From: Patescibacteria group bacterium
GTDB lineage: Bacteria > Patescibacteriota > Patescibacteriia > UM-FILTER-42-10
DNA: 64,000 nucleotides
Assembly (NCBI GenBank): GCA_041666485.1
Contig: JBAYGW010000003.1
Location: forward strand, 16,415-80,414
Direction of reading: 5' to 3'
This document shows, one piece after another, positions 10,308 through 56,923 of the stretch (the stretch's first letter is position 1; the number at the start of each line of letters is the position of its first letter). The position numbers and the translations under genes are program-made. The notes beneath the pieces are model-generated. The model did not search any database. It saw only the letters and a list, made by a program, of their open reading frames with translations, and had not been told where the DNA came from.

Positions 10308-10444
10308 TTGCTCAAGTGTCTTAATGATATAGCAATTTGTTACCGCCTGTCAAGTCGGGTCACAACTCCTCATAAAGCCAATCTTGACAATAACGTACTT
10401 TTGTATTACTTTCTTTGTATGTTGATCTTTGAAACAACGATGTA

Positions 10445-10572
10445 GGTGGGAGGACCGCCGTACCAAAAAGCAAGCAGTAATGCTACCCGCTGGGTGACAT
10501 TGACTGACGGGATTCGTCTCGTCCGTGGGCAGATGTTGCCCTCTGGGATGCTAAAGTGCGCGTCCTCCCACC
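10445..10572 (+). other. GC-rich structured element closed by an 11-bp perfect helix (candidate ncRNA or leader)
   Basis: GGTGGGAGGAC (10446-10456) pairs with GTCCTCCCACC (10563-10573, running into a CCCC run); internal hairpins GGGCAgatgTTGCCC and AGCAgtaaTGCT; not matched to any RNA family I know. Confidence 0.3.
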
Positions 10573-10760
10573 CCACTTTCTTCTACAAATTGCTTTGTGC
10601 GGACGCTTAAGTCCGTTTGTGATAGTCACCCCACAACCCGATCCTACAGGGAGGTACGCCAAATGTACTCGTGGAGTTACGCACGCCACGGGTTCGGTTG
10701 ACCTGCGATCTTCTCCGTCTGAGTAGTCAATGCCCACGACTCAAAATGAGGAGATCTCGC

Positions 10761-11126
10761 ATGTGCGACAAGACCCAATGGAACGCGGGGCACGTCCTCG
10801 TCGTCCAGACCGTGTTCCCGACCGACAGCGAATCCCCCGGCGGTTTCTCGCGCAGCGTCATGTTGTGCACCTGTGGGAGCTGCCTGAGCTCCAACAACCC
10901 GATGACGCCCGCAGGGCCCCTGCACAGCTACCTGAAACGGTGCTTTGAGCAGGACGCTGCTGATGCGGTGGCGGGGGGCCTTGAGCCGCCCGTCAACCTC
11001 CTGAGCATGCCGAAGCTTGACCCGCGCACCGGCGCCGAGAAGCCGACCAAGAAGCAGGCAGCCATGCTGATCAAGCAGATCGGTCCGGACGCCTTCGCTT
11101 CCGACATCGTCGCGGCCTACGCCTAG
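10761..11126 (+). CDS. hypothetical protein (GC-rich island gene 1)
   Basis: ORF about 60%+ GC; GAGGAG SD 6 nt upstream of ATG 10761; followed by strong terminator; no known domain. Confidence 0.45.
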   Translation: MCDKTQWNAGHVLVVQTVFPTDSESPGGFSRSVMLCTCGSCLSSNNPMTPAGPLHSYLKRCFEQDAADAVAGGLEPPVNLLSMPKLDPRTGAEKPTKKQAAMLIKQIGPDAFASDIVAAYA

Positions 11127-11276: not shown

Positions 11277-11573
11277 ATGTCCCAAAGTCGGCTGGTGATG
11301 TTCTTAATGCTCTTTCTCGGACTGACTCTCTCTCCCCTGTTTCTTGTCGTTGCGGCGGTTATGTTCCTTGCTCCCTCGGAGCCGAAGCTCATCCCCCGGG
11401 ATGATGAAGGGAGACGTTGCTGTCCCGTCTGCCACTCCAGACACTATCTCATCTTCCCGACTCGGCAGAAGAGCTACTTCGGCCATTCCTGGATTTCAGC
11501 ATTTTGCAGAAACCAAATGGAATACCGCTACCAGGACTGCACAATGAGCTGGAAAGAATCCGGGGACGGCTAA
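11277..11573 (+). CDS. hypothetical small membrane protein with CC..C.C..H cluster (GC-rich island gene 2)
   Basis: 99 aa from ATG after GGAGGAGG SD; N-terminal TM helix; CCPVCHSRH. Confidence 0.45.
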   Translation: MSQSRLVMFLMLFLGLTLSPLFLVVAAVMFLAPSEPKLIPRDDEGRRCCPVCHSRHYLIFPTRQKSYFGHSWISAFCRNQMEYRYQDCTMSWKESGDG

Positions 11574-11623: not shown

Positions 11624-11959
11624 CTATCTGAAGATTTTAGACAGAAACCAGTTTACAATAGCCAGTACAATACCAAACAGCAATGCCCACCAAAAGCTTG
11701 CTATGGAAAATCCCGGAACAATTAACGCCATCAGCATAACCAATAATGCGTTAATCACCAGCGTAAACAAGCCAAGCGTCAGAATATTGATCGGCAGAGT
11801 AAAAATTACTAAAACAGGTTTGATAAATATATTAATCAGACCCAATACCAACGCCCCGACAAAAGCGACAAAAAAACCATCAACCGCTACGCCCGGTAGC
11901 AGATAGGCTGTGATCAGGATTGCGACCGTTGAAATTAGCCATTTAATAAGGATTTTCAT
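11624..11959 (-). CDS. DUF360 / phage-holin-4_2 family membrane protein
   Basis: 111 aa, 4 TM; YLLPGV motif; AT-rich native composition. Confidence 0.55.
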   Translation of the reverse strand: MKILIKWLISTVAILITAYLLPGVAVDGFFVAFVGALVLGLINIFIKPVLVIFTLPINILTLGLFTLVINALLVMLMALIVPGFSIASFWWALLFGIVLAIVNWFLSKIFR

Positions 11960-12156
11960 ATTGTTTTATTTAATGATTATGAAATCTTAGCTCTCTCTCC
12001 ATCAACCCAAAATAGTTGTTCATTATTAACAAAAGTAGGTATAATTAATGTACAAATATATTTTAGCACAATTCGCATAAAATACTCTATATTGCTGAAA
12101 TACGACATATATTCGTGTTGAAACGGGTTAAGTGAAATTCTAAATCTATTTTACAT

Positions 12157-13206
12157 ATGACAAACCATTACGAACAACAATTACAATTTGCTGCCCGTCG
12201 TGAGCAAGAGTCACTATTTACTGACGAGAATTGGATGGTACGCGTCAACAACGAGCTCCATAGTACGTACTTACCACTAGATAAGGATAAAGAAACACTA
12301 AGACCAGAATATCATGCTAAATTACTGGAAGATGCAGAGGCGTATTACCTGAACATTGGTGACGATTTCAATACATTTCGTCTACGATTGAAAAGAGGAA
12401 ATTTACGGGAAGCTGAACAACTAGCGCAAGTATTTTTATCTAAAACAGAAGAACCTAATTTTTTCGCCCATTACACTTCACACCCAGAGGCAATGGACGA
12501 TGCAAACATTCTTGAATTAAAAAAAACATACGTTTTGAGTGATTTAGCGAGATATAAGAAAGATGAAGAGTTACAAAAACAAGCTGCTGCAAGATTCATT
12601 ACTTACGCGGAAAATCAATCGCAACGTGATGAACTATCTGGCTACGAGGCATCAGCTCTCGGATTCTGGCAGGCACGAAGTCTTGTTACAGAAAACAAGC
12701 GAGCTGATATTTCAAATAATTGCATTGCCCAGTTTCGGAAAGCTGCTGAAGATAGAGCTAAAGTCGGGGATCGCTGGTGGGAAAGCATTGCACTGCGCCA
12801 AATAGGCAAAATCTCACCAGATCCAGCGGATAAGCAGGCAGCCTTACAAAGGTCAGAGGAACTGATTACGGAATATACGCAAATGGGCGATTACAAAAAA
12901 GCAGCCCTCTGGGCTCGCGATGTAAATGATCTCAATCCTTCAACAGAAAATGCTCAAAGAATGGAAGATTTGTGGAATGAAAACATAAGGAGAATGCAGG
13001 AAAGTGGTAATACGCGAGACATAGCTAAATCGCTCTGGTCTTTGTTCAAAAGGGTAAGAAAATACGATAGTGAAAAAGCTGAAGATTGCAGATTAAAGAC
13101 AATAGAGTGGTATGAGAAACTCTTATCCGAGGAAAAGGCTAAAAAGCAACCGAGAGAAGACAGAATACGCGAGTGCTATTGGGTATTCAGTGAGCTCATT
13201 CAATAA
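12157..13206 (+). CDS. hypothetical alpha-helical protein
   Basis: 349 aa, charged helical repeats, no recognised motif; slightly higher GC than neighbours. Confidence 0.5.
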   Translation: MTNHYEQQLQFAARREQESLFTDENWMVRVNNELHSTYLPLDKDKETLRPEYHAKLLEDAEAYYLNIGDDFNTFRLRLKRGNLREAEQLAQVFLSKTEEPNFFAHYTSHPEAMDDANILELKKTYVLSDLARYKKDEELQKQAAARFITYAENQSQRDELSGYEASALGFWQARSLVTENKRADISNNCIAQFRKAAEDRAKVGDRWWESIALRQIGKISPDPADKQAALQRSEELITEYTQMGDYKKAALWARDVNDLNPSTENAQRMEDLWNENIRRMQESGNTRDIAKSLWSLFKRVRKYDSEKAEDCRLKTIEWYEKLLSEEKAKKQPREDRIRECYWVFSELIQ

Positions 13207-13290
13207 ATTCAGAACTTCACACAACACCGCGTATGCGGAGAGTTTAAATCATATAGAAACAATCGGAAAATAATAAATATAGTATAATTT

Positions 13291-13779
13291 ATGACTAAAA
13301 AAATAGTTGGAATAATGGGTCCCGGTAGTAAAGCCACCATGAAGGACCTAAAAAACGCCTACAATATCGGAAAATTTTGTGCTGAAAATAACTGGGTTAC
13401 TTTAACAGGTGGCAGAAACAAAGGAGTAATGAATGAAGCATTAAAAGGCGCGAAAAAGGGTAACGGCTTAACTATCGGAATATTGCCAACTGATGAAAAA
13501 AATAAATTTTCTAAATTCCTAGATATTGCAATCTGCACAAATATGAGATCTGGAAGAAATTATATAAATGTTTTGTCTAGTGATATAGTAGTAGCCTGTG
13601 GTATAGACCCTGGCACATCTTCAGAGATCAGTTTGGCAATAAAACCAAAAAAGAATGTAATTTTAGTAGGACTTAATAAAGAGGCAAAAGACTTTTATAA
13701 AAAACTAGCCCCTAAACAAGTTTATTGTGTAAAAAATTATATAGAAGCAAATAAAATATTAGCTGAAAAACTTGGGTGA
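13291..13779 (+). CDS. TIGR00725-family LOG-like (SLOG superfamily) Rossmann protein
   Basis: 162 aa; GIMGPG, LTGG..GVMNEA, IGILP, RN.INVLSSD..VA.G..GT.SE pattern of LOG/TIGR00725 proteins; TATAAT just upstream. Confidence 0.6.
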   Translation: MTKKIVGIMGPGSKATMKDLKNAYNIGKFCAENNWVTLTGGRNKGVMNEALKGAKKGNGLTIGILPTDEKNKFSKFLDIAICTNMRSGRNYINVLSSDIVVACGIDPGTSSEISLAIKPKKNVILVGLNKEAKDFYKKLAPKQVYCVKNYIEANKILAEKLG

Positions 13780-13785
13780 TTTTTT

Positions 13786-13992
13786 GTGTCATACATCACC
13801 CCCGACCTTGACGAAGCTGGCAAAAAACAACTTGCGGATGTTGTATTAGCTATGAGAAAAGATTTGTTAGGCAGAAAAACTAAATTAAAACATGATGATA
13901 TAAAATATTTCATGTTACTTACGACAAATAGTAATATATTTTACTTCGTACAACACGCATTAGGAGAAATGCATAAACCAATTGAAAATTAA
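13786..13992 (+). CDS. hypothetical small protein
   Basis: 68-aa ORF between the two SLOG genes; start uncertain. Confidence 0.25.
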   Translation: MSYITPDLDEAGKKQLADVVLAMRKDLLGRKTKLKHDDIKYFMLLTTNSNIFYFVQHALGEMHKPIEN

Positions 13993-14001
13993 ATAAATAG
14001 A

Positions 14002-14418
14002 ATGAAAATTGTAATTTGCGGAAGTATGTCGTCAGCAGTTAAGATGTTAAACGCTGAGAAAGAATTACTTCAAAAAGGCCATAAAGTTGTATTACCAAAA
14101 CATACAAAAGAATATGCAGAAATAGAATCGGAGGCGGACACATCACATGAATCAATCAAGGACAAAATTGAACAAGATCTAATACGAGACTATTTTGAAG
14201 AGATAAAAAACGCTGATGCAGTTTTGATTATTAATGTTGATAAATACGGTATTCAAAATTATATCGGTGGAAATGCTTTTCTGGAAATGGGTTTTGCATA
14301 TGTTCTCAGTAAACCAATTTATATACTCAATCAAATTCCGGAAATATTTTATAAAGATGAGATTTTGGCAATGCAGCCGATTACACTTAACGGAAATTTA
14401 TCTAAAATACATTTATAG
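14002..14418 (+). CDS. nucleoside 2-deoxyribosyltransferase-like protein (SLOG superfamily)
   Basis: 138 aa; MKIVICGSMS...ADAVLIINVDKYG...GGNAFLEMGFAYVLSKPIYIL typical of Nuc_deoxyrib_tr-like proteins. Confidence 0.55.
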   Translation: MKIVICGSMSSAVKMLNAEKELLQKGHKVVLPKHTKEYAEIESEADTSHESIKDKIEQDLIRDYFEEIKNADAVLIINVDKYGIQNYIGGNAFLEMGFAYVLSKPIYILNQIPEIFYKDEILAMQPITLNGNLSKIHL

Positions 14419-14692
14419 TTAGCAAATTTTTACCATTTTCTTCTATTGTTATATAATAAGAAAACAATAAAAATCAAGCATCGCACCAGCCTTGGCGAGG
14501 CGGGCAACACCGGATATCACCACTACGGTCTAGAACCCTTGGGGGCCTTTTTCAAGGAATTTCAGAGAGTTTTTCAAGAGGTCACCCCGTCATACGACGG
14601 GGCAGGAAATGAGACAAAAGAGACAGTGCAGAGGGGTGTCTTATTCTTGACTCATTTAAATAACAGTAGCGTAATATTTACACGTTTAATTA

Positions 14693-14722
14693 TCTCAAAA
14701 GGCACGAATTGATATTCGTGCC
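14693..14722 (-). terminator. hairpin GGCACGAAT..ATTCGTGCC followed on minus strand by TTTTGAGAT
   Basis: 9-bp stem; plausible terminator for minus-strand gene 14856..15392. Confidence 0.4.
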
Positions 14723-14855
14723 CATATGCTATCTATAAGAATTAGACAATTATAACAACTTAATTTGTAAAACAGATACAAGAGACACAATGTCTATTAT
14801 AATTTTTCAACTAAATCATTAACTTCTTCGACATTAATTATGATTAGCTAAAAGA

Positions 14856-15392
14856 TTATTGCGCAGCAGGATAATTGACACGACCCAGATCGCGCGTTAA
14901 TGCCCACCATAAAGACGTCTTTGTAACCGATGGTAGCGATCCGGAAGTATCTTCAGGTATTGATAATACATCGTCCATTAATTGTCCTTGAATATACTGA
15001 CCCGGCACAAAAAGAGAGACTGCGGTCGCTGCGCTGGGATTCGGGTGATTCAACACTGTTAACTGTCCGTTAGTACGCATAACGTCTCTAATCATTAAAA
15101 CTCTTCCAATATATCCATCTGACTCGGTAAATGGATTACTATTTGGCGCGACTGCTGTATATGCATAAAAGCGAAATGAATTTGCAAAAGTCGGGCTAAG
15201 ATAAAAATAAATGCCCAAGAGTACAAATGTAAAACCAACCAAAGTAAAAAAGGAACCGACAATTAAGGAAATCCTTTTCCAAAGACTCCCTTTTGATTTG
15301 ATAATAAATATAATCAAAACAACCACTGCAATTAATATCAGCGGCATAATGACCGCCAAGCTTATGTAGTTTAAACCAAGGTTTGCTTGCAT
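14856..15392 (-). CDS. hypothetical membrane protein
   Basis: 178 aa, two N-terminal TM helices then extracytoplasmic domain. Confidence 0.45.
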   Translation of the reverse strand: MQANLGLNYISLAVIMPLILIAVVVLIIFIIKSKGSLWKRISLIVGSFFTLVGFTFVLLGIYFYLSPTFANSFRFYAYTAVAPNSNPFTESDGYIGRVLMIRDVMRTNGQLTVLNHPNPSAATAVSLFVPGQYIQGQLMDDVLSIPEDTSGSLPSVTKTSLWWALTRDLGRVNYPAAQ

Positions 15393-15452
15393 ATGTTTTA
15401 TAATAAAGATTTATATGTATATATTATATCATTTTATATAAAAGTATAATAG

Positions 15453-15491
15453 TATAAAAATGGCTCTGACAACGAATTCGTCGCCAGAGCC
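15453..15491 (-). terminator. GC-rich intrinsic terminator of the secreted-protein gene
   Basis: GGCTCTGACAACG-aatt-CGTCGCCAGAGCC followed on minus strand by ATTTTTAT. Confidence 0.6.
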
Positions 15492-15514
15492 TTGAATGAA
15501 ACAGGAGCGCTATA

Positions 15515-15895
15515 CTACGGACAGCTGCCGATCCACGGGGTCGGACTGCCCGTGTAGTCGAATGCCAGGCAACCGAGATGCGTCGTACCACCACCGAGGG
15601 TCTTCGACGGCCAGGTGTTGGACTGAATGTTGATGTCATTCACCCATGCCTTGCCGATGTAACCGGAACCAGACGGAAGTCCCGAGACAGAGATCAGTCG
15701 TTGCCCGAGCGGGAGCGTGACCATCGTGTTCTGCCAACGGACTGTGCTCCCCTGGATGATCTGCACCGTGTACGTGAATGATGATGGACCTCTCACCGTC
15801 ACCTGAGCAGTGCCGGCATGGGCGACGCTAACAGATCCGATGGACACCATCACGACGAGGACAAACAGCAGGATGACACTCTTGAAGATCTTCAT
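15515..15895 (-). CDS. small secreted protein (signal peptide), high-GC codon usage
   Basis: 126 aa; MKIFKSVILLFVLVVMVSIGSVSVAHA signal; about 60% GC; AAAGGTGG SD; C-terminal Cys pair. Confidence 0.55.
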   Translation of the reverse strand: MKIFKSVILLFVLVVMVSIGSVSVAHAGTAQVTVRGPSSFTYTVQIIQGSTVRWQNTMVTLPLGQRLISVSGLPSGSGYIGKAWVNDINIQSNTWPSKTLGGGTTHLGCLAFDYTGSPTPWIGSCP

Positions 15896-16459
15896 GATCT
15901 TCCACCTTTCATGCGAGTTTGCCTATGCTGTAATGACCAATGAAGCTACGATGAACTCTTACCTCCTTTCTCAAATAGGAAACGAACGATGAATCATTCC
16001 TGGTGTAACCAAGAACGTTATTAAAAGTATGTATGAGTATCAAAATTATTGCAAGAATAAACTTGCGTTATGAAATCTCGGAATCCAAACTACTTTCTCT
16101 TTTTAGAGTGATGATTGAGTGTCCACCAACATCGAAATCAAGATTTTGATGTATTAATGCGTACAGTTTTTTTATAATATGACCATCTTAGACAAACCCA
16201 GACAATATGATTACCGATAATATCAGACAAAATAAATGCCCTTGGAATGAAGCAGAAATGTAAACACTCACAAATGTGCTGTAAAAAATATTTCAATTTG
16301 TGATTATTTCTGTGGGATTGAATATCTAGATAATGTTTTGTGTTGTTATCCCGATAAAAATACTTTGCTAGATAATAAACAAAACAAATAATTTTATTCC
16401 TTAACGCTCGCTCTGGACGCCGGAATATCCTATTCTGTTAGCTGATTGCCGGATAAATT

Positions 16460-17461
16460 TCAGGCTATCGGGTTATTCTCCATCTTTTCACTTTCATCTT
16501 CAATCTCCCCCACCAACTCTTCCAATAGATCTTCCAGCGTGGCAATACCGACGGCTTTTTGTTGCTTGTCCACAACTACTGCAATGTGAACATGAGTTTT
16601 CTGAAAAATTTTGAACAGGTAATTTATTTTAAAATCCTCATCTACAATAATCGGTTTTTTTGCAACCTGTTCAATACGAGCGTTGCCTTTATTTTTTACA
16701 AGTTCTCTAGCAATATCTTTCACTAGTGCAATCCCCACGATGTCATGCTTGTCAGATTTATATACCGGAACACGCGAATAGCCACTGGTAATAATTTCAC
16801 TCATCGCTTCTGAAATTGTTTTTTCACCTTGGAGCATAAAAACGTTTTTAAAAGGGACCATAATCTCTTTTGCTAAAGTATCGCTGAATATCAAAGCCTG
16901 GTTCATAATATATTGCTCGTGCGGTTGAATTACATTTCTTTCCACGCCAAACTGGATCATTTCCTTGATTTCTGTTTCCGTAATTAATTCTTGATCAGGG
17001 ATTTTTACAATTCTGTGCATTAAATTTGTAATCCATTCCAAAAACCAGACAAACGGATAAATAATTAAACCGAAATAGTAAACCGGCCTGGAAATAAATA
17101 AAGCTATGGCACCGGCATTACGGTTGGCAAATGTCTTTGGCATAATTTCACCAAAGATTAAGATCAACAAAGTCAGAATGCCCGTTGCTAATCCGATCAC
17201 ACCTGATCCAAAATGTTCTGAGACAATAATTGCCGTCATGGAGGCCGCGGAGATGTTTGCGATGTTATTGCCGATTAAAACTATAATAATCATCCGGCGA
17301 GGTCTTTCCTTTAGTTTGCGTAAAATACGCGAGCCGCGCTTATTTTCTTTAAGATACGTACGCACCTTTAAATCTGTTACCGAAAGCAAAGCAACCTCGG
17401 CAGCGGAAAAATATCCGGAGATCAGCAACAGAACAAATAAGATTAAAATGTTGGTCCACAT
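16460..17461 (-). CDS. CNNM/CorC-family protein (DUF21 transmembrane domain + CBS pair)
   Basis: 333 aa; N-terminal SGYFSAAEVALLSV DUF21, tandem CBS. Confidence 0.8.
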   Translation of the reverse strand: MWTNILILFVLLLISGYFSAAEVALLSVTDLKVRTYLKENKRGSRILRKLKERPRRMIIIVLIGNNIANISAASMTAIIVSEHFGSGVIGLATGILTLLILIFGEIMPKTFANRNAGAIALFISRPVYYFGLIIYPFVWFLEWITNLMHRIVKIPDQELITETEIKEMIQFGVERNVIQPHEQYIMNQALIFSDTLAKEIMVPFKNVFMLQGEKTISEAMSEIITSGYSRVPVYKSDKHDIVGIALVKDIARELVKNKGNARIEQVAKKPIIVDEDFKINYLFKIFQKTHVHIAVVVDKQQKAVGIATLEDLLEELVGEIEDESEKMENNPIA

Positions 17462-17462
17462 A

Positions 17463-18041
17463 CTACTTTACTATATTTATGTTGAATTTTTTTAGTGCCC
17501 TGACTAAAGCATAGATGGGCAAACCGACAATGCTAAAGAAATCACCTTCCAACTTGCGGATCAGCACTGCACCATACCCCTGAACGGCAAATGCTCCCGC
17601 TTTATCTAAAGGTTCACGTGTTCCAATATACCAGTTTATTTCCTCTGATGATAGCTTTTTGATGGAGACTTTTGCGGTGCTATAATCAGAATATTTCCTT
17701 TTTGTTCTTGCGTCAACTATAGCAAATCCGGTGATTACATTCACACTCTTCCCGCTGATCATTTTTAACATTCTTCGGGTATCTTCCTTGTCTTTCGGCT
17801 TGCCTAATAGCTTATTACCCAAAACAACAAAAGTATCAGCGCCAATTACTATCCCCTCTGCATGTTTCTTTGCCACAGACTGGGCTTTGTTAAGCGCCAA
17901 AAACTTCGCCAGCCTCACAGGCGACAGATTTATTTTCATATCCTCCGGATATTCGCTGGCTTCCACAGAAAATTTTACTTTCAACATTTTCAGCAATTCT
18001 ATTCTCCTGGGGGAGGTTGATGCCAAAATTATTTTTTGCAT
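17463..18041 (-). CDS. maf: Maf-like nucleoside triphosphate pyrophosphatase
   Basis: 192 aa; IILASTSPRRIELL, GADTVV-like core. Confidence 0.85.
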   Translation of the reverse strand: MQKIILASTSPRRIELLKMLKVKFSVEASEYPEDMKINLSPVRLAKFLALNKAQSVAKKHAEGIVIGADTFVVLGNKLLGKPKDKEDTRRMLKMISGKSVNVITGFAIVDARTKRKYSDYSTAKVSIKKLSSEEINWYIGTREPLDKAGAFAVQGYGAVLIRKLEGDFFSIVGLPIYALVRALKKFNINIVK

Positions 18042-22907: not shown

Positions 22908-24497
22908 CTAGTGCCAGAACATCCGGCGATCGGTAAAGAGCATCGCGATGCCCAGTTTGTCCGCGGACCTGATTGAATCCTGGTCGCGAATTGAACCGCC
23001 CTGCTGGACGATCGTCTTGACGCCGAACGTGTCCGCCAGGCGCACGCAGTCGTCAAACGGGAAGAAGCTGTCGGACACCAGCACAGCATGGTGCAGATCC
23101 ATATTCTGCGCCTCCATGTTGTTCATGGCCTGCTCCAGAGCAAGCCGTGCCGACTTGATCCGGCTGGTCTGGCCGTTGCCGATGCCGATCGTCTGCCCGT
23201 TCCAGACCACGATGACCGAGTTGGACTTGACGTGCTTTGACACATTGCAGCCGAAACTGATATCCGACCAGTAGCGGTCCTTGACACCGAGCTTGGTGAC
23301 GCACCGGAACGACCTGCAGTCAAACAGCTCGGTGTCCATCAGCTGGACCACCATGCCGCCGGTCACCGGCTTGAAGTTCAGCGTGCCGAACGGCATGCTG
23401 CAGGAAAGCTCCCCACCCAGTTTGAACAGCGGGGTCTCTGCCCTGGCGCGCTTCTTGGTGATGTGTTCCATCGCCTCCGGCGAAAAATCCAGCGCGACGA
23501 TCGCGTCCACCTTCTGCACGCAGATGGTTTCAGCGACTTCCTCCGTCACCTGGAAGTTGAGTACCACCACCCCGCCGAAAGCCGATTCCGGATCGCACGC
23601 CAGTGCGTTCTGGAAAGCCTTCAGCGGACTGAAGCTGTCCATCGCCACTCCGCACGGCGTACCATGCTTGATGATCGCGACTGCGAATTCCGGGGACAGG
23701 TCGCGGACCGTCTCAATGCCGGCATTGATATCCAGCACAGTGGTGGCCGAGAGCGGCTTGCCCCAGATCTGCTTGGCGTTTGCCGCGGTGTAGCAGTTCA
23801 GACCCGGCAGTTCGTAGAACGCACCCGGCTGATGCGGATTCTCACCGTAGCGCAGATCACACTTCTTCTGCAGACGCTGAACCATCCGATCCGGGAAGCT
23901 GGGGAACTCAAGGCGTTCAGCCAGCCAGTCGGAGATCGTGGCGTCATACCACGCAGTGTGAAGAAACGCCTTGTAAGCCAGTTGCAGACGTTCCAGCGCG
24001 TTGAACCCGACATCTTCCGAAAGACACCGAATCACAAAGCCGTACTGCTCTGGTGAAGTGACCACCAGCACATGGCTGTGATTCTTCGCGGCCGCGCGGA
24101 TCAGTGCCACGCCGCCGATATCAATCTGCTCAATCGCGTCCCGAAATGCCACGGTCCGATCAGCCACCGTCTCTTCAAACGGATACAGGTTGACCACGAC
24201 CATGTCAAACGGGTAGATGCTGTGATCAAACAGCTCCTGCATGTGCGCGTCGCTGTCCTGATCCGCCAGGATCCCGCCGTGGATCTTCGGATGCAGAGTC
24301 TTCACCCTGCCACCCAGAATTTCCGGGAAACCGGTCACCTCCTCTACCGTTCGCACGGGAATTCCGGCTTCCACCAGGTGTCTGGACGTTCCGCCGGAAG
24401 ATACAATCTCCCAGCCATGTTCAAACAGCACGGTGGCAAGCTCAACAATGCCGCGCTTGTCGGACACGCTGATCAGAGCGCGCTGATTTGCTCGCAT
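22908..24497 (-). CDS. purH: bifunctional AICAR transformylase / IMP cyclohydrolase (high-GC gene)
   Basis: ALISVSDKRGIVELA MGS-like domain, GGRVKTLHPKIHGGILA, AICARFT domain; about 60% GC; AAAGGAG SD 7 nt before ATG at 24497. Confidence 0.85.
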   Translation of the reverse strand: MRANQRALISVSDKRGIVELATVLFEHGWEIVSSGGTSRHLVEAGIPVRTVEEVTGFPEILGGRVKTLHPKIHGGILADQDSDAHMQELFDHSIYPFDMVVVNLYPFEETVADRTVAFRDAIEQIDIGGVALIRAAAKNHSHVLVVTSPEQYGFVIRCLSEDVGFNALERLQLAYKAFLHTAWYDATISDWLAERLEFPSFPDRMVQRLQKKCDLRYGENPHQPGAFYELPGLNCYTAANAKQIWGKPLSATTVLDINAGIETVRDLSPEFAVAIIKHGTPCGVAMDSFSPLKAFQNALACDPESAFGGVVVLNFQVTEEVAETICVQKVDAIVALDFSPEAMEHITKKRARAETPLFKLGGELSCSMPFGTLNFKPVTGGMVVQLMDTELFDCRSFRCVTKLGVKDRYWSDISFGCNVSKHVKSNSVIVVWNGQTIGIGNGQTSRIKSARLALEQAMNNMEAQNMDLHHAVLVSDSFFPFDDCVRLADTFGVKTIVQQGGSIRDQDSIRSADKLGIAMLFTDRRMFWH

Positions 24498-24641
24498 TTC
24501 TGCTCCTTTCGTGGCAAACCGTGAAGCTTTCACCGCAAACAACCGTTTGGGAAACGGTTTTTTAACTTATCACTCCGACTGACGCAAGTCAAATCAAAAA
24601 CGGGTGACTTTCACCCGCATTTAATTATGAATGAATATGTC

Positions 24642-55653: not shown

Positions 55654-55810
55654 ACCGTCTTATTGTACCAAATATCAATGTTTCTGGCGACTTGTCATTA
55701 CAGTCACGTAGCAACCCTGACTTGCCAGAGTAAATGAAATATGGTAAAAACAAAACTGTGCCCATCTTCAGGGCGCAAATGACCAAAACCCGTTTTTGGG
55801 AGGTATTGGT

Positions 55811-56923
55811 ATGGACCAACGATTTGTCGATCTGGCGAGAGTCATGGTCGGCCATTCCACAAGGGTCTCAAAGGACGATATCGTCATCGTCAAGAGCACG
55901 GAGGTAGTGCCGCCCGACATGATCTTCGCGGTGATCCAGACCGTGCGCGAAGCGGGGGGCTCCGTGATCCCCTGGCGCTACGATCCGCGCATTGACTTCG
56001 AGGCATTCAGGGGTGGCACCGCTCACCAGCTGCGTGCCTGGGGCGCCGGCCAGTTTACCCAACTGGCTGCCGCCAACTGCTTCATTGAGTTCCGGCCGTT
56101 CAGTAACCAGCTCGACGGCAACGACGTGCCGGCAGCGGACATGCAGCGCCACGGCGAGGTGTTCGTTCCGCTGACGGTTGAACAGCGCGTGGAACGCACC
56201 CGCTGGGTGCTGACCCGCTGGCCGACGCCGGCCAACGCCCAGTTGGCCGGGATGTCCACGACGCAGTTCGAAGAGTTCTTCTTCAAGGCATGCCTCGCCG
56301 ACTACGGCGCCATGGCCAAGGCCGTGAAGCCGCTCGTCGCCCTGATGGAGCGGACCGACCAGGTCCAGATCCAAGGGCCGGGCGACACCGATCTCACTTT
56401 CAGCATCAAGGGAATTCCGATCATCGCCTGTACCGGATCGCACAACATCCCCGACGGCGAAGTGTTCACGGCGCCGGTTCGCGATTCCATGAACGGCGTG
56501 ATCGCCTACAACACCCCCACGGTCAACTCCCGCGGCCAGCGGTTCACCAATCTCCGCTTCGTGGTCAAGGCGGGCAAGATCGTGGAGGCGACCTGCGAGA
56601 CGGGTGACCAGACGGCGCTGGACGCCTTCCTGGACACCGACGAGGGTGCCCGCTACTTCGGCGAATTCGCCCTCGGCATCAACAACTTCGTCACGGGTGT
56701 GATCGGCGAAACGCTGTTCGACGAGAAGGTCGGTGGAAGCCTCCACTTGACGCCCGGCCGGTGCTATGAGCAAGCGCCGAACGGGAACCAGTCGGCCAAC
56801 CACTGGGACATCGTCTGCGATCAGCGCGGGGCTTCCGGTGGTGGGGAGATCTACTTCGACGGCAAGCTGGTCCGCAGCAAAGGGCTTTTCATCCCGAAGA
56901 GCCTCCACGCGCTCAATCCCTGA
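55811..56923 (+). CDS. M29-family aminopeptidase (AmpS/PepS-like), high-GC gene
   Basis: 371 aa; GEFALGIN and HWDIV motifs; about 65% GC; GGGAGG SD before ATG 55811. Confidence 0.75.
   Translation: MDQRFVDLARVMVGHSTRVSKDDIVIVKSTEVVPPDMIFAVIQTVREAGGSVIPWRYDPRIDFEAFRGGTAHQLRAWGAGQFTQLAAANCFIEFRPFSNQLDGNDVPAADMQRHGEVFVPLTVEQRVERTRWVLTRWPTPANAQLAGMSTTQFEEFFFKACLADYGAMAKAVKPLVALMERTDQVQIQGPGDTDLTFSIKGIPIIACTGSHNIPDGEVFTAPVRDSMNGVIAYNTPTVNSRGQRFTNLRFVVKAGKIVEATCETGDQTALDAFLDTDEGARYFGEFALGINNFVTGVIGETLFDEKVGGSLHLTPGRCYEQAPNGNQSANHWDIVCDQRGASGGGEIYFDGKLVRSKGLFIPKSLHALNP

What the first reader, a model, noticed from the sequence alone, without database searches (positions are those of the whole stretch)
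12157..14418. Two SLOG-superfamily genes (LOG-like TIGR00725 + nucleoside 2-deoxyribosyltransferase-like) beside a 349-aa helical protein: candidate undescribed nucleotide-processing or conflict module
A LOG-like Rossmann protein and a Nuc_deoxyrib_tr-like protein are both predicted N-glycosidic-bond-cleaving SLOG folds. They are co-oriented and tightly spaced, with a 68-aa ORF between them and a 349-aa unannotatable helical protein upstream. The cluster sits in an accessory-like stretch (arsR to CorC, about 10.3-16.4 kb) with GC-rich inserted cassettes on both sides. SLOG pairs are reported in biological-conflict and modified-nucleotide systems. Here they could instead be salvage enzymes, given the organism's nucleotide-salvage-heavy gene content. 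Either way the arrangement is not a textbook operon.
Basis: partly seen in the sequence, partly recalled or inferred. Interest (0 to 1): 0.7.

Follow-up and report, generated by a model that had tools for sequence, protein, structure and literature searches.

The report
Unlinked nucleotide-enzyme genes, variable slot
The four genes exist and belong to recognisable families, but they sit together only in this one Patescibacteria genome, so this is a chance juxtaposition in a swap-prone stretch of DNA and not a new nucleotide-processing or defence module.

Summary

Of 80 genomes carrying the NDT-like gene, one has any SLOG-like gene within 10 kb. Of 80 metagenomic loci and 3 further looked-up contexts (7 loci) carrying the MCP-like gene, none has the NDT-like or 349-aa gene nearby. 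The 349-aa family sits in seven other contexts, never beside an MCP-like gene.

Two syntenic relatives keep the backbone ArsR, holin, NDT-like, CorC, Maf. Between holin and NDT-like they carry entirely different genes. So 12139-13959 is a replaceable slot next to a conserved backbone NDT-like gene.

The most likely roles are independent ones in nucleotide salvage, house-cleaning or ligand binding. Interest is low. A conserved structured RNA leader at about 10442-10580 was noticed in passing.

The parts
12157..13206 (+). 349-aa TPR-like helical-repeat protein from a rare Patescibacteria-only family. It is part of the variable slot.
13291..13779 (+). 162-aa SLOG cluster-4 protein of the Moco-carrier-protein (MCP) family. 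It behaves as a single-gene accessory cassette.
   Evidence: PF18306, E 6.7e-45. PDB hits: 6Y01 (RoMCP) E 4.9e-43 with 51% identity, and 2IZ5 (CrMCP) E 1.4e-36 with 45.5% identity. LOG enzymes hit only at E about 1e-5 with the family profile. Invariant G40, R89, N90, G108, T109, E112. The DNA is 84% identical to L090/L091 across the gene only, where the flanks differ.
13786..13992 (+). 68-aa GTG ORF, probably a non-functional 3' remnant of an unrelated small membrane-protein gene.
   Evidence: No family hits. The only similarity is between residues 5-41 and the C-terminus of a 139-aa protein in L055 (51% over 37 aa, E 3.4e-5). It is not present upstream of the NDT-like gene in relatives: homology to L097 starts at window 13960.
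14002..14418 (+). 138-aa protein of the NDT/DNPH1 superfamily. It is a conserved backbone gene of Patescibacteria and DPANN, not part of the slot.
12139..13959 (.). Variable slot A, which holds the 349-aa gene, the MCP-like gene and the 68-aa ORF. Relatives carry different genes here.
   Evidence: Flank homology ends at window 12138 (matching L097 8065) and resumes at 13960 (matching L097 9941). In L097 the slot holds an integrase, a 93-aa gene and Vpar_1526. In L099 it holds a 220-aa gene, HAD, a 274-aa gene, Methyltransf_24, NUDIX and an AAA_18/33 kinase. None of these has a counterpart here.
14430..16430 (.). Variable slot B, downstream of the NDT-like gene. It holds an 88-aa ORF or possible small RNA, a 178-aa membrane protein and a 126-aa secreted protein.
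   Evidence: There is no tblastx or blastn match to L097 or L099 between 14443 and 16432. The relatives carry OmdA, a 99-aa or HATPase gene and a 417-aa gene instead, none of which is found in the window. The window ORFs have no Pfam hits.
11624..11959 (-). Phage_holin_4_2-family membrane protein. It is the conserved left anchor of slot A.
   Evidence: PF04020, E 1.2e-33. Conserved in L099 (84% over 71 aa) and partly in L097.
16460..18041 (-). CNNM/CBS (CorC-like) and Maf genes. They form the conserved right anchor.
   Evidence: PF01595/PF00571 and PF02545. Syntenic in L097 and L099.

Best explanation
The cluster is a lineage-specific juxtaposition and not a functional module.

What is shown:
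- The NDT-like gene (14002-14418) is a conserved backbone gene of Patescibacteria and DPANN. It keeps its place between a holin-family gene and CorC-Maf in related genomes.
- The DNA just upstream of it (12139-13959) is a replaceable slot that carries different cargo in each relative.
- In this genome the cargo is a rare TPR-like protein, a single-gene MCP-family (SLOG cluster-4) cassette, and a leftover gene fragment.

What is inferred about function:
- The NDT-like protein most likely cleaves or transfers the N-glycosidic bond of a (deoxy)nucleoside or (deoxy)nucleotide, using the invariant Glu95. This would serve base salvage or house-cleaning in an organism that depends on scavenged nucleotides.
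- The MCP-like protein most likely binds a phosphate-bearing, nucleotide-like small molecule in the LOG-type pocket, and may hydrolyse it. In its characterised cyanobacterial and algal relatives that ligand is the molybdenum cofactor.
- The TPR-like protein is a protein- or ligand-binding scaffold with no detectable link to the other two.
For: Co-localisation is at chance level:
- 1 of 80 NDT-like genome loci has any SLOG-like ORF within 10 kb. That ORF scores 66 bits and belongs to a different subfamily.
- 0 of 80 metagenomic MCP-like loci have an NDT-like or 349-aa homologue; 48 of them have at least 5 kb of flank.
- 0 of 7 looked-up MCP-like loci (3 distinct contexts) do either.
- The 349-aa family appears in 7 distinct contexts, none with an MCP-like gene. 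Only L007 has an NDT-like gene, 2.3 kb away.

Synteny:
- L097 and L099 share ArsR, the GC-rich segment, holin, NDT-like, CorC and Maf, but have unrelated genes in the slot. In L097 these include a tyrosine integrase.

Separate histories:
- The nearest MCP-like relative (86% aa, 84% nt across the gene only) sits beside a Y1 transposase and CYTH-MazG-HD genes in L090.
- The nearest 349-aa relative (77%) has other neighbours.

Family assignments.

NDT-like neighbourhoods are mainly housekeeping: lysS in 24 loci, greA in 17, serS in 15. Nucleotide house-cleaning genes appear occasionally: HD in 8+4 loci, NUDIX in 5, Maf in 5, dCMP deaminase in 5. No PADLOC model matches beyond noise.
Against: - The three genes are co-oriented and close together, so co-transcription in this genome cannot be excluded.
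- The two enzymes belong to folds that both act on N-glycosidic bonds.
- Each is found next to a phosphoribosyltransferase once elsewhere: L096 for the MCP-like gene and L007 for the NDT-like gene. A shared salvage theme is therefore plausible.
- No substrate has been demonstrated for either protein.
- Whether this genome has any molybdoenzyme is unknown from 64 kb.
- The pattern-based locus scans return only the best 80 hits and can miss divergent homologues.
Confidence: 0.75

Rival explanations
1. This is a lineage-specific salvage operon. The MCP/LOG-like protein releases bases from ribonucleoside monophosphates and the NDT/DNPH1-like protein releases them from deoxynucleotides, or transfers deoxyribose. 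The two were recently brought together and are co-expressed to feed base salvage.
For: The genes share a strand and have short gaps. The LOG-type residues R89 and E112 are invariant in the MCP-like family, and E95 is invariant in the NDT-like family. Each gene lies next to a PRTase once elsewhere. Nucleotide house-cleaning genes (NUDIX, an AAA_18/33 kinase overlapping the NDT-like start by 4 nt, HD, Maf) recur near the NDT-like gene.
Against: The pairing is not conserved in 160 scanned loci and 3 looked-up MCP-like contexts (7 loci). A 222-nt gap holding a probable gene remnant separates the two genes. Characterised MCPs are reported to lack enzymatic activity (PMC7470044). The promoter scan is no better than shuffled sequence.
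Confidence: 0.15
2. This is a biological-conflict (anti-phage or toxin) module. A SLOG sensor or effector pairs with an NDT/TIR-like effector and a TPR scaffold.
Against: PADLOC gives only noise-level hits: PsyrA at 18.9 bits and a CARF model at 16.9 bits. The NDT-like gene is a conserved backbone gene in housekeeping contexts across at least 354 genomes. The SLOG gene is an MCP orthologue found alone in varied contexts. There is no nuclease, NADase, cyclase or other effector or sensor partner, and no co-occurrence of the genes.
Confidence: 0.03
3. The SLOG cluster-4 protein is a genuine molybdenum-cofactor carrier here. It would store Moco scavenged from a host for a molybdoenzyme encoded elsewhere in the genome, and its neighbours would be irrelevant.
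For: It is 51% identical to RoMCP and 45.5% identical to CrMCP. That lies within the 50-60% range used in the literature to call bacterial MCP homologues (PMC9571131). RoMCP binds Moco and transfers it to apo-nitrate reductase (PMC7470044).
Against: No Mo-related gene was seen among the annotated neighbours of the window or of the looked-up CPR/DPANN MCP-like loci. From general knowledge, Patescibacteria and DPANN usually lack Moco biosynthesis and molybdoenzymes. This was not testable from 64 kb.
Confidence: 0.15

Closest known systems
Moco carrier proteins: RoMCP (PDB 6Y01, Rippkaea orientalis) and CrMCP (PDB 2IZ5-7, Chlamydomonas reinhardtii)
   Same: The 162-aa protein aligns full-length at 51% and 45.5% identity (E 4.9e-43 and 1.4e-36). 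It has the same length and the same GGRxxGVM, RN and GxxGTxxE motifs.
   Different: The host is a Patescibacteria MAG, where a Moco economy is doubtful. Ligand binding is untested. The gene sits in a variable slot and not in a molybdenum context.
LOG cytokinin riboside 5'-monophosphate phosphoribohydrolases (PF03641, TIGR00730)
   Same: It has the same SLOG Rossmannoid fold. Counterparts of the LOG catalytic Arg and Glu (R89, E112) and the Gly-rich loop are invariant. The family profile hits LOG structures at E 5e-5 to 8e-3.
   Different: There is no PF03641 hit. TIGR00730 scores 19 bits against a cut-off of 96. The motif reads DPGTSSE rather than PGGxGTxxE. Characterised close relatives (MCPs) are reported to be non-enzymatic.
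Nucleoside 2'-deoxyribosyltransferases (PF05014; e.g. PDB 7O62, 6EVS, 1F8X)
   Different: The protein scores below the Pfam gathering threshold. No PDB NDT is found by sequence. It has a family-specific helical insert at about residues 33-70 that carries invariant S51, K55, D59 and R62. The N-terminal motif is CGSM rather than the Tyr-containing NDT motif (from my own knowledge).
DNPH1/Rcl 2'-deoxynucleoside 5'-phosphate N-hydrolase, and the MilB/BcmB/BlsM CMP N-glycosidases
   Different: The sequence relationship is not statistically significant. The Tyr that precedes CGS in DNPH1 is Val/Ile here. Substrate, and any preference for phosphorylated substrates, is untested.
SLOG-containing conflict systems (e.g. 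Thoeris ThsA SLOG domain, PsyrTA)
   Same: They share the SLOG fold class.
   Different: There is no fused or adjacent effector, no significant PADLOC hit and no conserved neighbourhood. The protein is a stand-alone MCP orthologue.
TPR_12/TPR_10 repeat scaffolds and LanC-like alpha/alpha toroids
   Different: No Pfam TPR model hits the protein itself. Identity to LanC-like proteins is 8-10%, and no LanC-type Zn-ligand pattern is evident among the invariant residues.

Membership tests
Pfam PF18306 LDcluster4 (SLOG cluster 4) | HMM score above the gathering threshold (26.3 bits) across most of the model | tested here: met
   152.8 bits, E 6.7e-45, residues 4-138 on model positions 2-133 of 151. 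All 120 listed homologues carry PF18306.
NCBIfam TIGR00725 | Score above the curated cut-off (106.9 bits) | tested here: not met
   92.3 bits, E 2e-26. The protein is related but scores below the family cut-off.
Moco carrier protein (MCP) family | Full-length sequence homology to the characterised CrMCP and RoMCP | tested here: met
   6Y01: E 4.9e-43, 51% identity over 148 aa. 2IZ5: E 1.4e-36, 45.5% identity over 145 aa.
Moco carrier protein (MCP) family | Binds Moco and donates it to an apo-molybdoenzyme; forms a homotetramer | not testable with these tools
   These properties are defined biochemically (PMC7470044).
LOG phosphoribohydrolase (PF03641 / TIGR00730) | Family HMM hit plus the PGGxGTxxE motif | tested here: not met
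   No PF03641 hit. TIGR00730 scores 19.1 bits against a cut-off of 96. The motif is D-P-G-T-S-S-E, so only GTxxE is retained.
Nucleoside 2'-deoxyribosyltransferase (PF05014) | HMM score above the gathering threshold (28.8 bits) | tested here: not met
   19.7 bits, E 9.7e-4 for this protein. 22 of 33 family members hit at E<=0.01, with the best at 3.4e-6.
NDT/DNPH1 structural superfamily | Flavodoxin-like NDT fold as the best structural match | tested here: met
   [not shown]
NDT/DNPH1 structural superfamily | Catalytic Glu nucleophile at the end of the central strand | tested here: inconclusive
   E95 is invariant within GGNxFLEMG. It aligns with the DNPH1 ELG Glu in an hhalign against a sequence recalled from memory (E 0.059). 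No residue-level structural superposition was available.
Conserved SLOG + NDT-like (+ 349-aa) gene module | The genes recur as neighbours in other genomes | tested here: not met
   1 of 80 NDT-like loci, 0 of 80 metagenomic MCP-like loci and 0 of 7 looked-up MCP-like loci (3 distinct contexts). The 349-aa family is in 7 contexts, none with an MCP-like gene. Syntenic relatives lack the pair.
Known anti-phage defence systems (PADLOC-DB 2.0) | Significant match of any of the proteins to a defence-system model | tested here: not met
   The best hits are PsyrA at 18.9 bits (E 1.6e-4), a CARF model at 16.9 bits and Cas11 at 15.5 bits. All are partial and at noise level. The NDT-like protein and the 68-aa ORF have no hits.
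TPR repeat proteins | Match to TPR repeat models | tested here: inconclusive
   There is no Pfam TPR hit on the protein itself. However, the family profile retrieves TPR_12/TPR_10 proteins at E down to 2e-22, and JGI names one homologue a TPR protein.

The most novel reading that the evidence does not exclude
MCP-family (SLOG cluster-4) proteins are widespread and highly conserved in Patescibacteria and DPANN, which are thought to lack a molybdenum-cofactor economy. In these organisms the protein may not be a Moco carrier at all. It may instead bind or hydrolyse a nucleotide-like metabolite. In this lineage it may have been recruited next to the conserved NDT/DNPH1-like gene to form a young two-step base-salvage operon.
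Probability: 0.1. Interest if true: 0.45.

Novelty: new member of a known kind. Interest (0 to 1): 0.2.

Why it matters
The practical value is negative. This cluster should not be carried forward as a candidate new nucleotide-processing or defence system.

Three smaller points are useful:
- The 'cytochrome' and 'TIGR00725' labels on these small Rossmann proteins in CPR and DPANN genomes hide the fact that they are close homologues of structurally characterised Moco carrier proteins. That raises the question of which ligand they handle in organisms that probably have no molybdoenzymes.
- A roughly 137-aa NDT/DNPH1-like family is a conserved, uncharacterised gene in hundreds of Patescibacteria and DPANN genomes. 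It is a reasonable target for biochemical study of nucleotide salvage in ultra-small symbionts.
- The locus shows how a replaceable slot next to a conserved gene can mimic an operon.

Tried and rejected
- Defence or conflict module. PADLOC and PHROGs scans of all five ORFs gave only noise-level partial hits. Rejected.
- Conserved module. Tested in both directions with 80 genome loci for the NDT-like gene and 80 metagenome loci for the MCP-like gene, plus 12 contig look-ups. No recurrence was found. Rejected.
- Second-order link through shared MazG-HD neighbours of the 349-aa gene (L001) and the MCP-like gene (L090). The MazG and HD proteins are only 27-32% identical over partial lengths, so they are not the same cluster. 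Dropped.
- Sequence-level placement of the NDT-like family against solved structures. A profile search and a single-sequence search found no NDT or DNPH1 chain. Only fold searches worked.
- 68-aa ORF as a conserved small gene or as a read-through extension. It is in frame with the MCP-like ORF after its TGA stop, but MCP homologues all end at about 160 aa and the ORF is not conserved. It is treated as a remnant.
- 'GC-rich inserted cassette' at 10.3-11.65 kb. It is not an insertion, because it is conserved end to end in relatives.
- Rfam searches of the window, of the two sub-regions and of L097/L099 found nothing but one tRNA.
- The AFDB50 fold library was unavailable. The Burroughs et al. 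2015 SLOG paper could not be retrieved.
Full report
**Observation.** The host is a Patescibacteria MAG: the 349-aa protein is identical to NCBI 'WCT33_01140, Patescibacteria group bacterium'.

**The 162-aa protein.**
- It is a clear member of Pfam PF18306 'SLOG cluster4' (E 6.7e-45).
- It scores 92 bits on TIGR00725, below that model's 106.9-bit cut-off. It has no LOG (PF03641) hit.
- A family profile and the single sequence both hit two solved structures very strongly. PDB 6Y01 is deposited as 'p450 cytochrome, putative' and is the Rippkaea orientalis Moco carrier protein. PDB 2IZ5 is the Chlamydomonas Moco carrier protein. E-values are 4.9e-43 and 1.4e-36, with 51% and 45.5% identity.
- Genuine LOG enzymes appear only at E 5e-5 to 8e-3 with the family profile.
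- The literature describes RoMCP as binding Moco selectively and donating it to apo-nitrate reductase, and CrMCP as devoid of enzymatic function (PMC7470044). Bacterial homologues at 50-60% identity are treated as MCPs (PMC9571131).
- The family keeps invariant G40, R89-N90 and G108-T109-x-S111-E112. These are the counterparts of the LOG nucleotide-pocket residues (inference).

**The 138-aa protein.**
- It hits PF05014 (nucleoside 2-deoxyribosyltransferase) at only 19.7 bits, against a gathering score of 28.8. However, 22 of 33 family members hit that model.
- An AF2 model built on 33 homologues is confident (pLDDT 89.6).
- Foldseek puts NDTs, the CMP N-glycosidases BcmB and MilB, DNPH1, BlsM and YtoQ on top.
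- The family has invariant C6-G7-S8, D59, R62, D72, G89-G90-N91 and E95.
At E 0.059 this is only a lead.
- The protein is therefore in the NDT/DNPH1 superfamily at fold level. It is not a Pfam-threshold member, and from my own knowledge it does not belong to the SLOG superfamily proper.

**The 349-aa protein.**
- It has no Pfam or NCBIfam match. It has only 11 homologues, all from Patescibacteria-type sources.
- An exhaustive profile search of 1.84 billion cluster representatives found six at E<1e-30. Beyond those, only long TPR_12/TPR_10 proteins match, to positions of about 185-320.
- The AF2 model is confident and all-helical (pLDDT 91.1).

**The 68-aa ORF.** It has no family hits. It is not conserved upstream of the NDT-like gene in relatives. 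It resembles only the C-terminal 37 residues of a 139-aa membrane protein in L055 (E 3.4e-5). It is probably a remnant.

**Is it a module?** I tested co-localisation in both directions.
- From the NDT-like gene: a scan of one genome per species found the NDT-like gene in 354 genomes. In the 80 best loci (up to 10 kb of flank on each side), an HMM for the MCP-like family found a hit in only one, L069. That hit scores 66 bits and belongs to a different LOG-like subfamily.
- The common neighbours of the NDT-like gene are lysS (24 loci), greA (17) and serS (15). Occasional neighbours are HD, NUDIX, Maf and dCMP-deaminase genes. Tandem NDT-like paralogues occur in 9 loci.
- From the MCP-like gene: 80 metagenomic loci, 48 of them with at least 5 kb of flank, contain no NDT-like and no 349-aa homologue.
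- Three looked-up MCP-like contexts also lack both. One is the closest relative (86% aa), beside a Y1 transposase and CYTH-MazG-HD genes. One is a lone gene between DNA ligase and a HEPN/NTase pair in Nanoarchaeota. One is a PRTase-MCP pair in Gracilibacteria.
- The 349-aa family was examined in seven other contexts. None has an MCP-like neighbour, and the neighbours differ each time. Only L007 has an NDT-like gene, 2.3 kb away and followed by a PRTase.

**Synteny settles the anatomy.**
- Two relatives, L097 (NDT-like 85% identical) and L099 (78%), share the gene order ArsR, GC-rich segment, holin_4_2, [slot], NDT-like, [slot], CorC, Maf and onward.
- Homology to L097 stops at window 12138 and resumes at 13960, about 40 nt before the NDT-like start codon.
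- In that interval L097 carries an integrase, a 93-aa gene and a Vpar_1526 gene. L099 carries a 220-aa gene, HAD, a 274-aa gene, a methyltransferase, NUDIX and an AAA_18/33 kinase whose stop overlaps the NDT-like start. None of these has a counterpart here.
- A second variable slot lies downstream of the NDT-like gene, at about 14430-16430.
- The MCP-like gene is 84% identical at the DNA level to L090 across the gene only. It is also 72.5% identical at the DNA level to Nanoarchaeota copies, which is consistent with movement as a single-gene cassette.
- Promoter and terminator scans are no better than shuffled sequence.

**Conclusion.**
- The gene set is a lineage-specific juxtaposition in a replaceable slot next to a conserved backbone gene.
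- The family calls and the 'accessory' flavour of part of the stretch are correct. The module or conflict reading is not supported, and no PADLOC model matches.
- Mechanistically I commit to three independent roles, all inferred. The NDT-like protein is a Glu95-dependent N-glycosidic-bond hydrolase or transferase in (deoxy)nucleotide salvage or house-cleaning. The MCP-like protein binds, and possibly hydrolyses, a phosphate-bearing nucleotide-like ligand, which is Moco in its characterised relatives. The TPR-like protein is a scaffold.
- A young lineage-specific salvage operon cannot be excluded, but I give it about 0.15.

**Noticed in passing.**
- The 'GC-rich cassette' at 10.3-11.65 kb is conserved end to end in both relatives, at 75-77% nucleotide identity.
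- It contains a promoter-like site followed by a highly conserved structured leader of about 140 nt (about 10442-10580). The leader folds at -66.6 kcal/mol with z -4.0. Its consensus fold has 44 pairs, including one compensatory and seven one-sided changes. It has no Rfam match.
- Two GC-rich small ORFs without Pfam hits follow the leader.
- The other GC-rich islands are single protein genes: purH at 22908-24542 and an M29 peptidase at 55796-56923.

Noticed in passing
window 10385-10600 (leader about 10442-10580), + strand; also L099:3002-3143 and L097:5530-5676: A highly conserved structured RNA leader of about 140 nt lies downstream of a CTTGACA promoter-like site and upstream of a GC-rich 121-aa ORF. 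MFE is -66.6 kcal/mol with z -4.0. The consensus fold has 44 pairs (1 compensatory, 7 one-sided changes). There is no Rfam match even at E<=1. This is a candidate new cis-regulatory RNA, or riboswitch-like element, in Patescibacteria. Only three sequences are available.
   Followed up: partly
It aligns end to end with relatives L099 (76.7% nt) and L097 (74.9% nt). It encodes two small GC-rich ORFs, each followed by a terminator-like hairpin and T-run: about 10761-11126 (121 aa) and 11277-11573 (98 aa, a TM helix plus a CxxC zinc-ribbon-like motif). Neither has a Pfam hit.
   Followed up: partly
window 13786-13992: The 68-aa ORF lies in the same frame as the MCP-like gene, two codons after its TGA stop. 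Its first 40 residues or so resemble the C-terminus of a 139-aa membrane protein in L055 (13886-14305). It looks like the 3' remnant of a gene displaced when the slot's cargo changed.
   Followed up: partly
window 14429-14722, + strand: A 10/12 sigma-70-like promoter (14429-14457) is followed by a moderately GC-rich stretch of about 260 nt. The stretch has a weak fold signal (z -2.4) and ends in a hairpin, GGCACGAATTGATATTCGTGCC. The 88-aa TTG ORF within it has no homologues in the fetched loci and no family hits. It could be a small RNA or an orphan small gene.
   Followed up: partly
L092-L095 (Nanoarchaeota) compared with window 13268-13750: The MCP-like gene is 72.5% identical at the DNA level and 72% at the protein level between this bacterium and Nanoarchaeota/DPANN contigs. 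Its close homologues are spread across CPR, DPANN and Firmicutes. This points to cross-domain horizontal transfer of a single-gene cassette.
   Followed up: no
P0136, P0143, P0154, P0156, P0175, P0187, P0222 (homologues of window 13291-13779): NCBI names many of these MCP-family proteins 'cytochrome'. PDB entry 6Y01 (RoMCP) is deposited as 'p450 cytochrome, putative', so that wording exists at the PDB level too. This looks like a propagated misannotation.
   Followed up: no
L019, L029, L071, L032, L052, L075, L084, L015, L068: Nine of 80 genomes carry two NDT-like paralogues at the same locus. Tandem duplication of this gene is therefore far more common than pairing with a SLOG gene.
   Followed up: no
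L097:7138-7950 and L099:9510-10411: In relative L097 a tyrosine integrase sits in the same slot, next to a holin gene that matches the window's over only 71 aa. In L099 an AAA_18/33 kinase-like gene overlaps the NDT-like start codon by 4 nt, with NUDIX just upstream. This is the best hint that the NDT-like protein works in nucleotide metabolism.
   Followed up: partly
window 22908-24542 (-) and 55796-56923 (+): The strongest GC-rich islands (GC 0.60-0.64 in a genome of about 0.39 GC) are single protein-coding genes. One is purH (AICARFT/IMPCHase plus MGS) and the other is an M29 peptidase. They are probably acquisitions from high-GC donors. purH is also present in the relatives.
   Followed up: partly
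[not shown]
   Followed up: no
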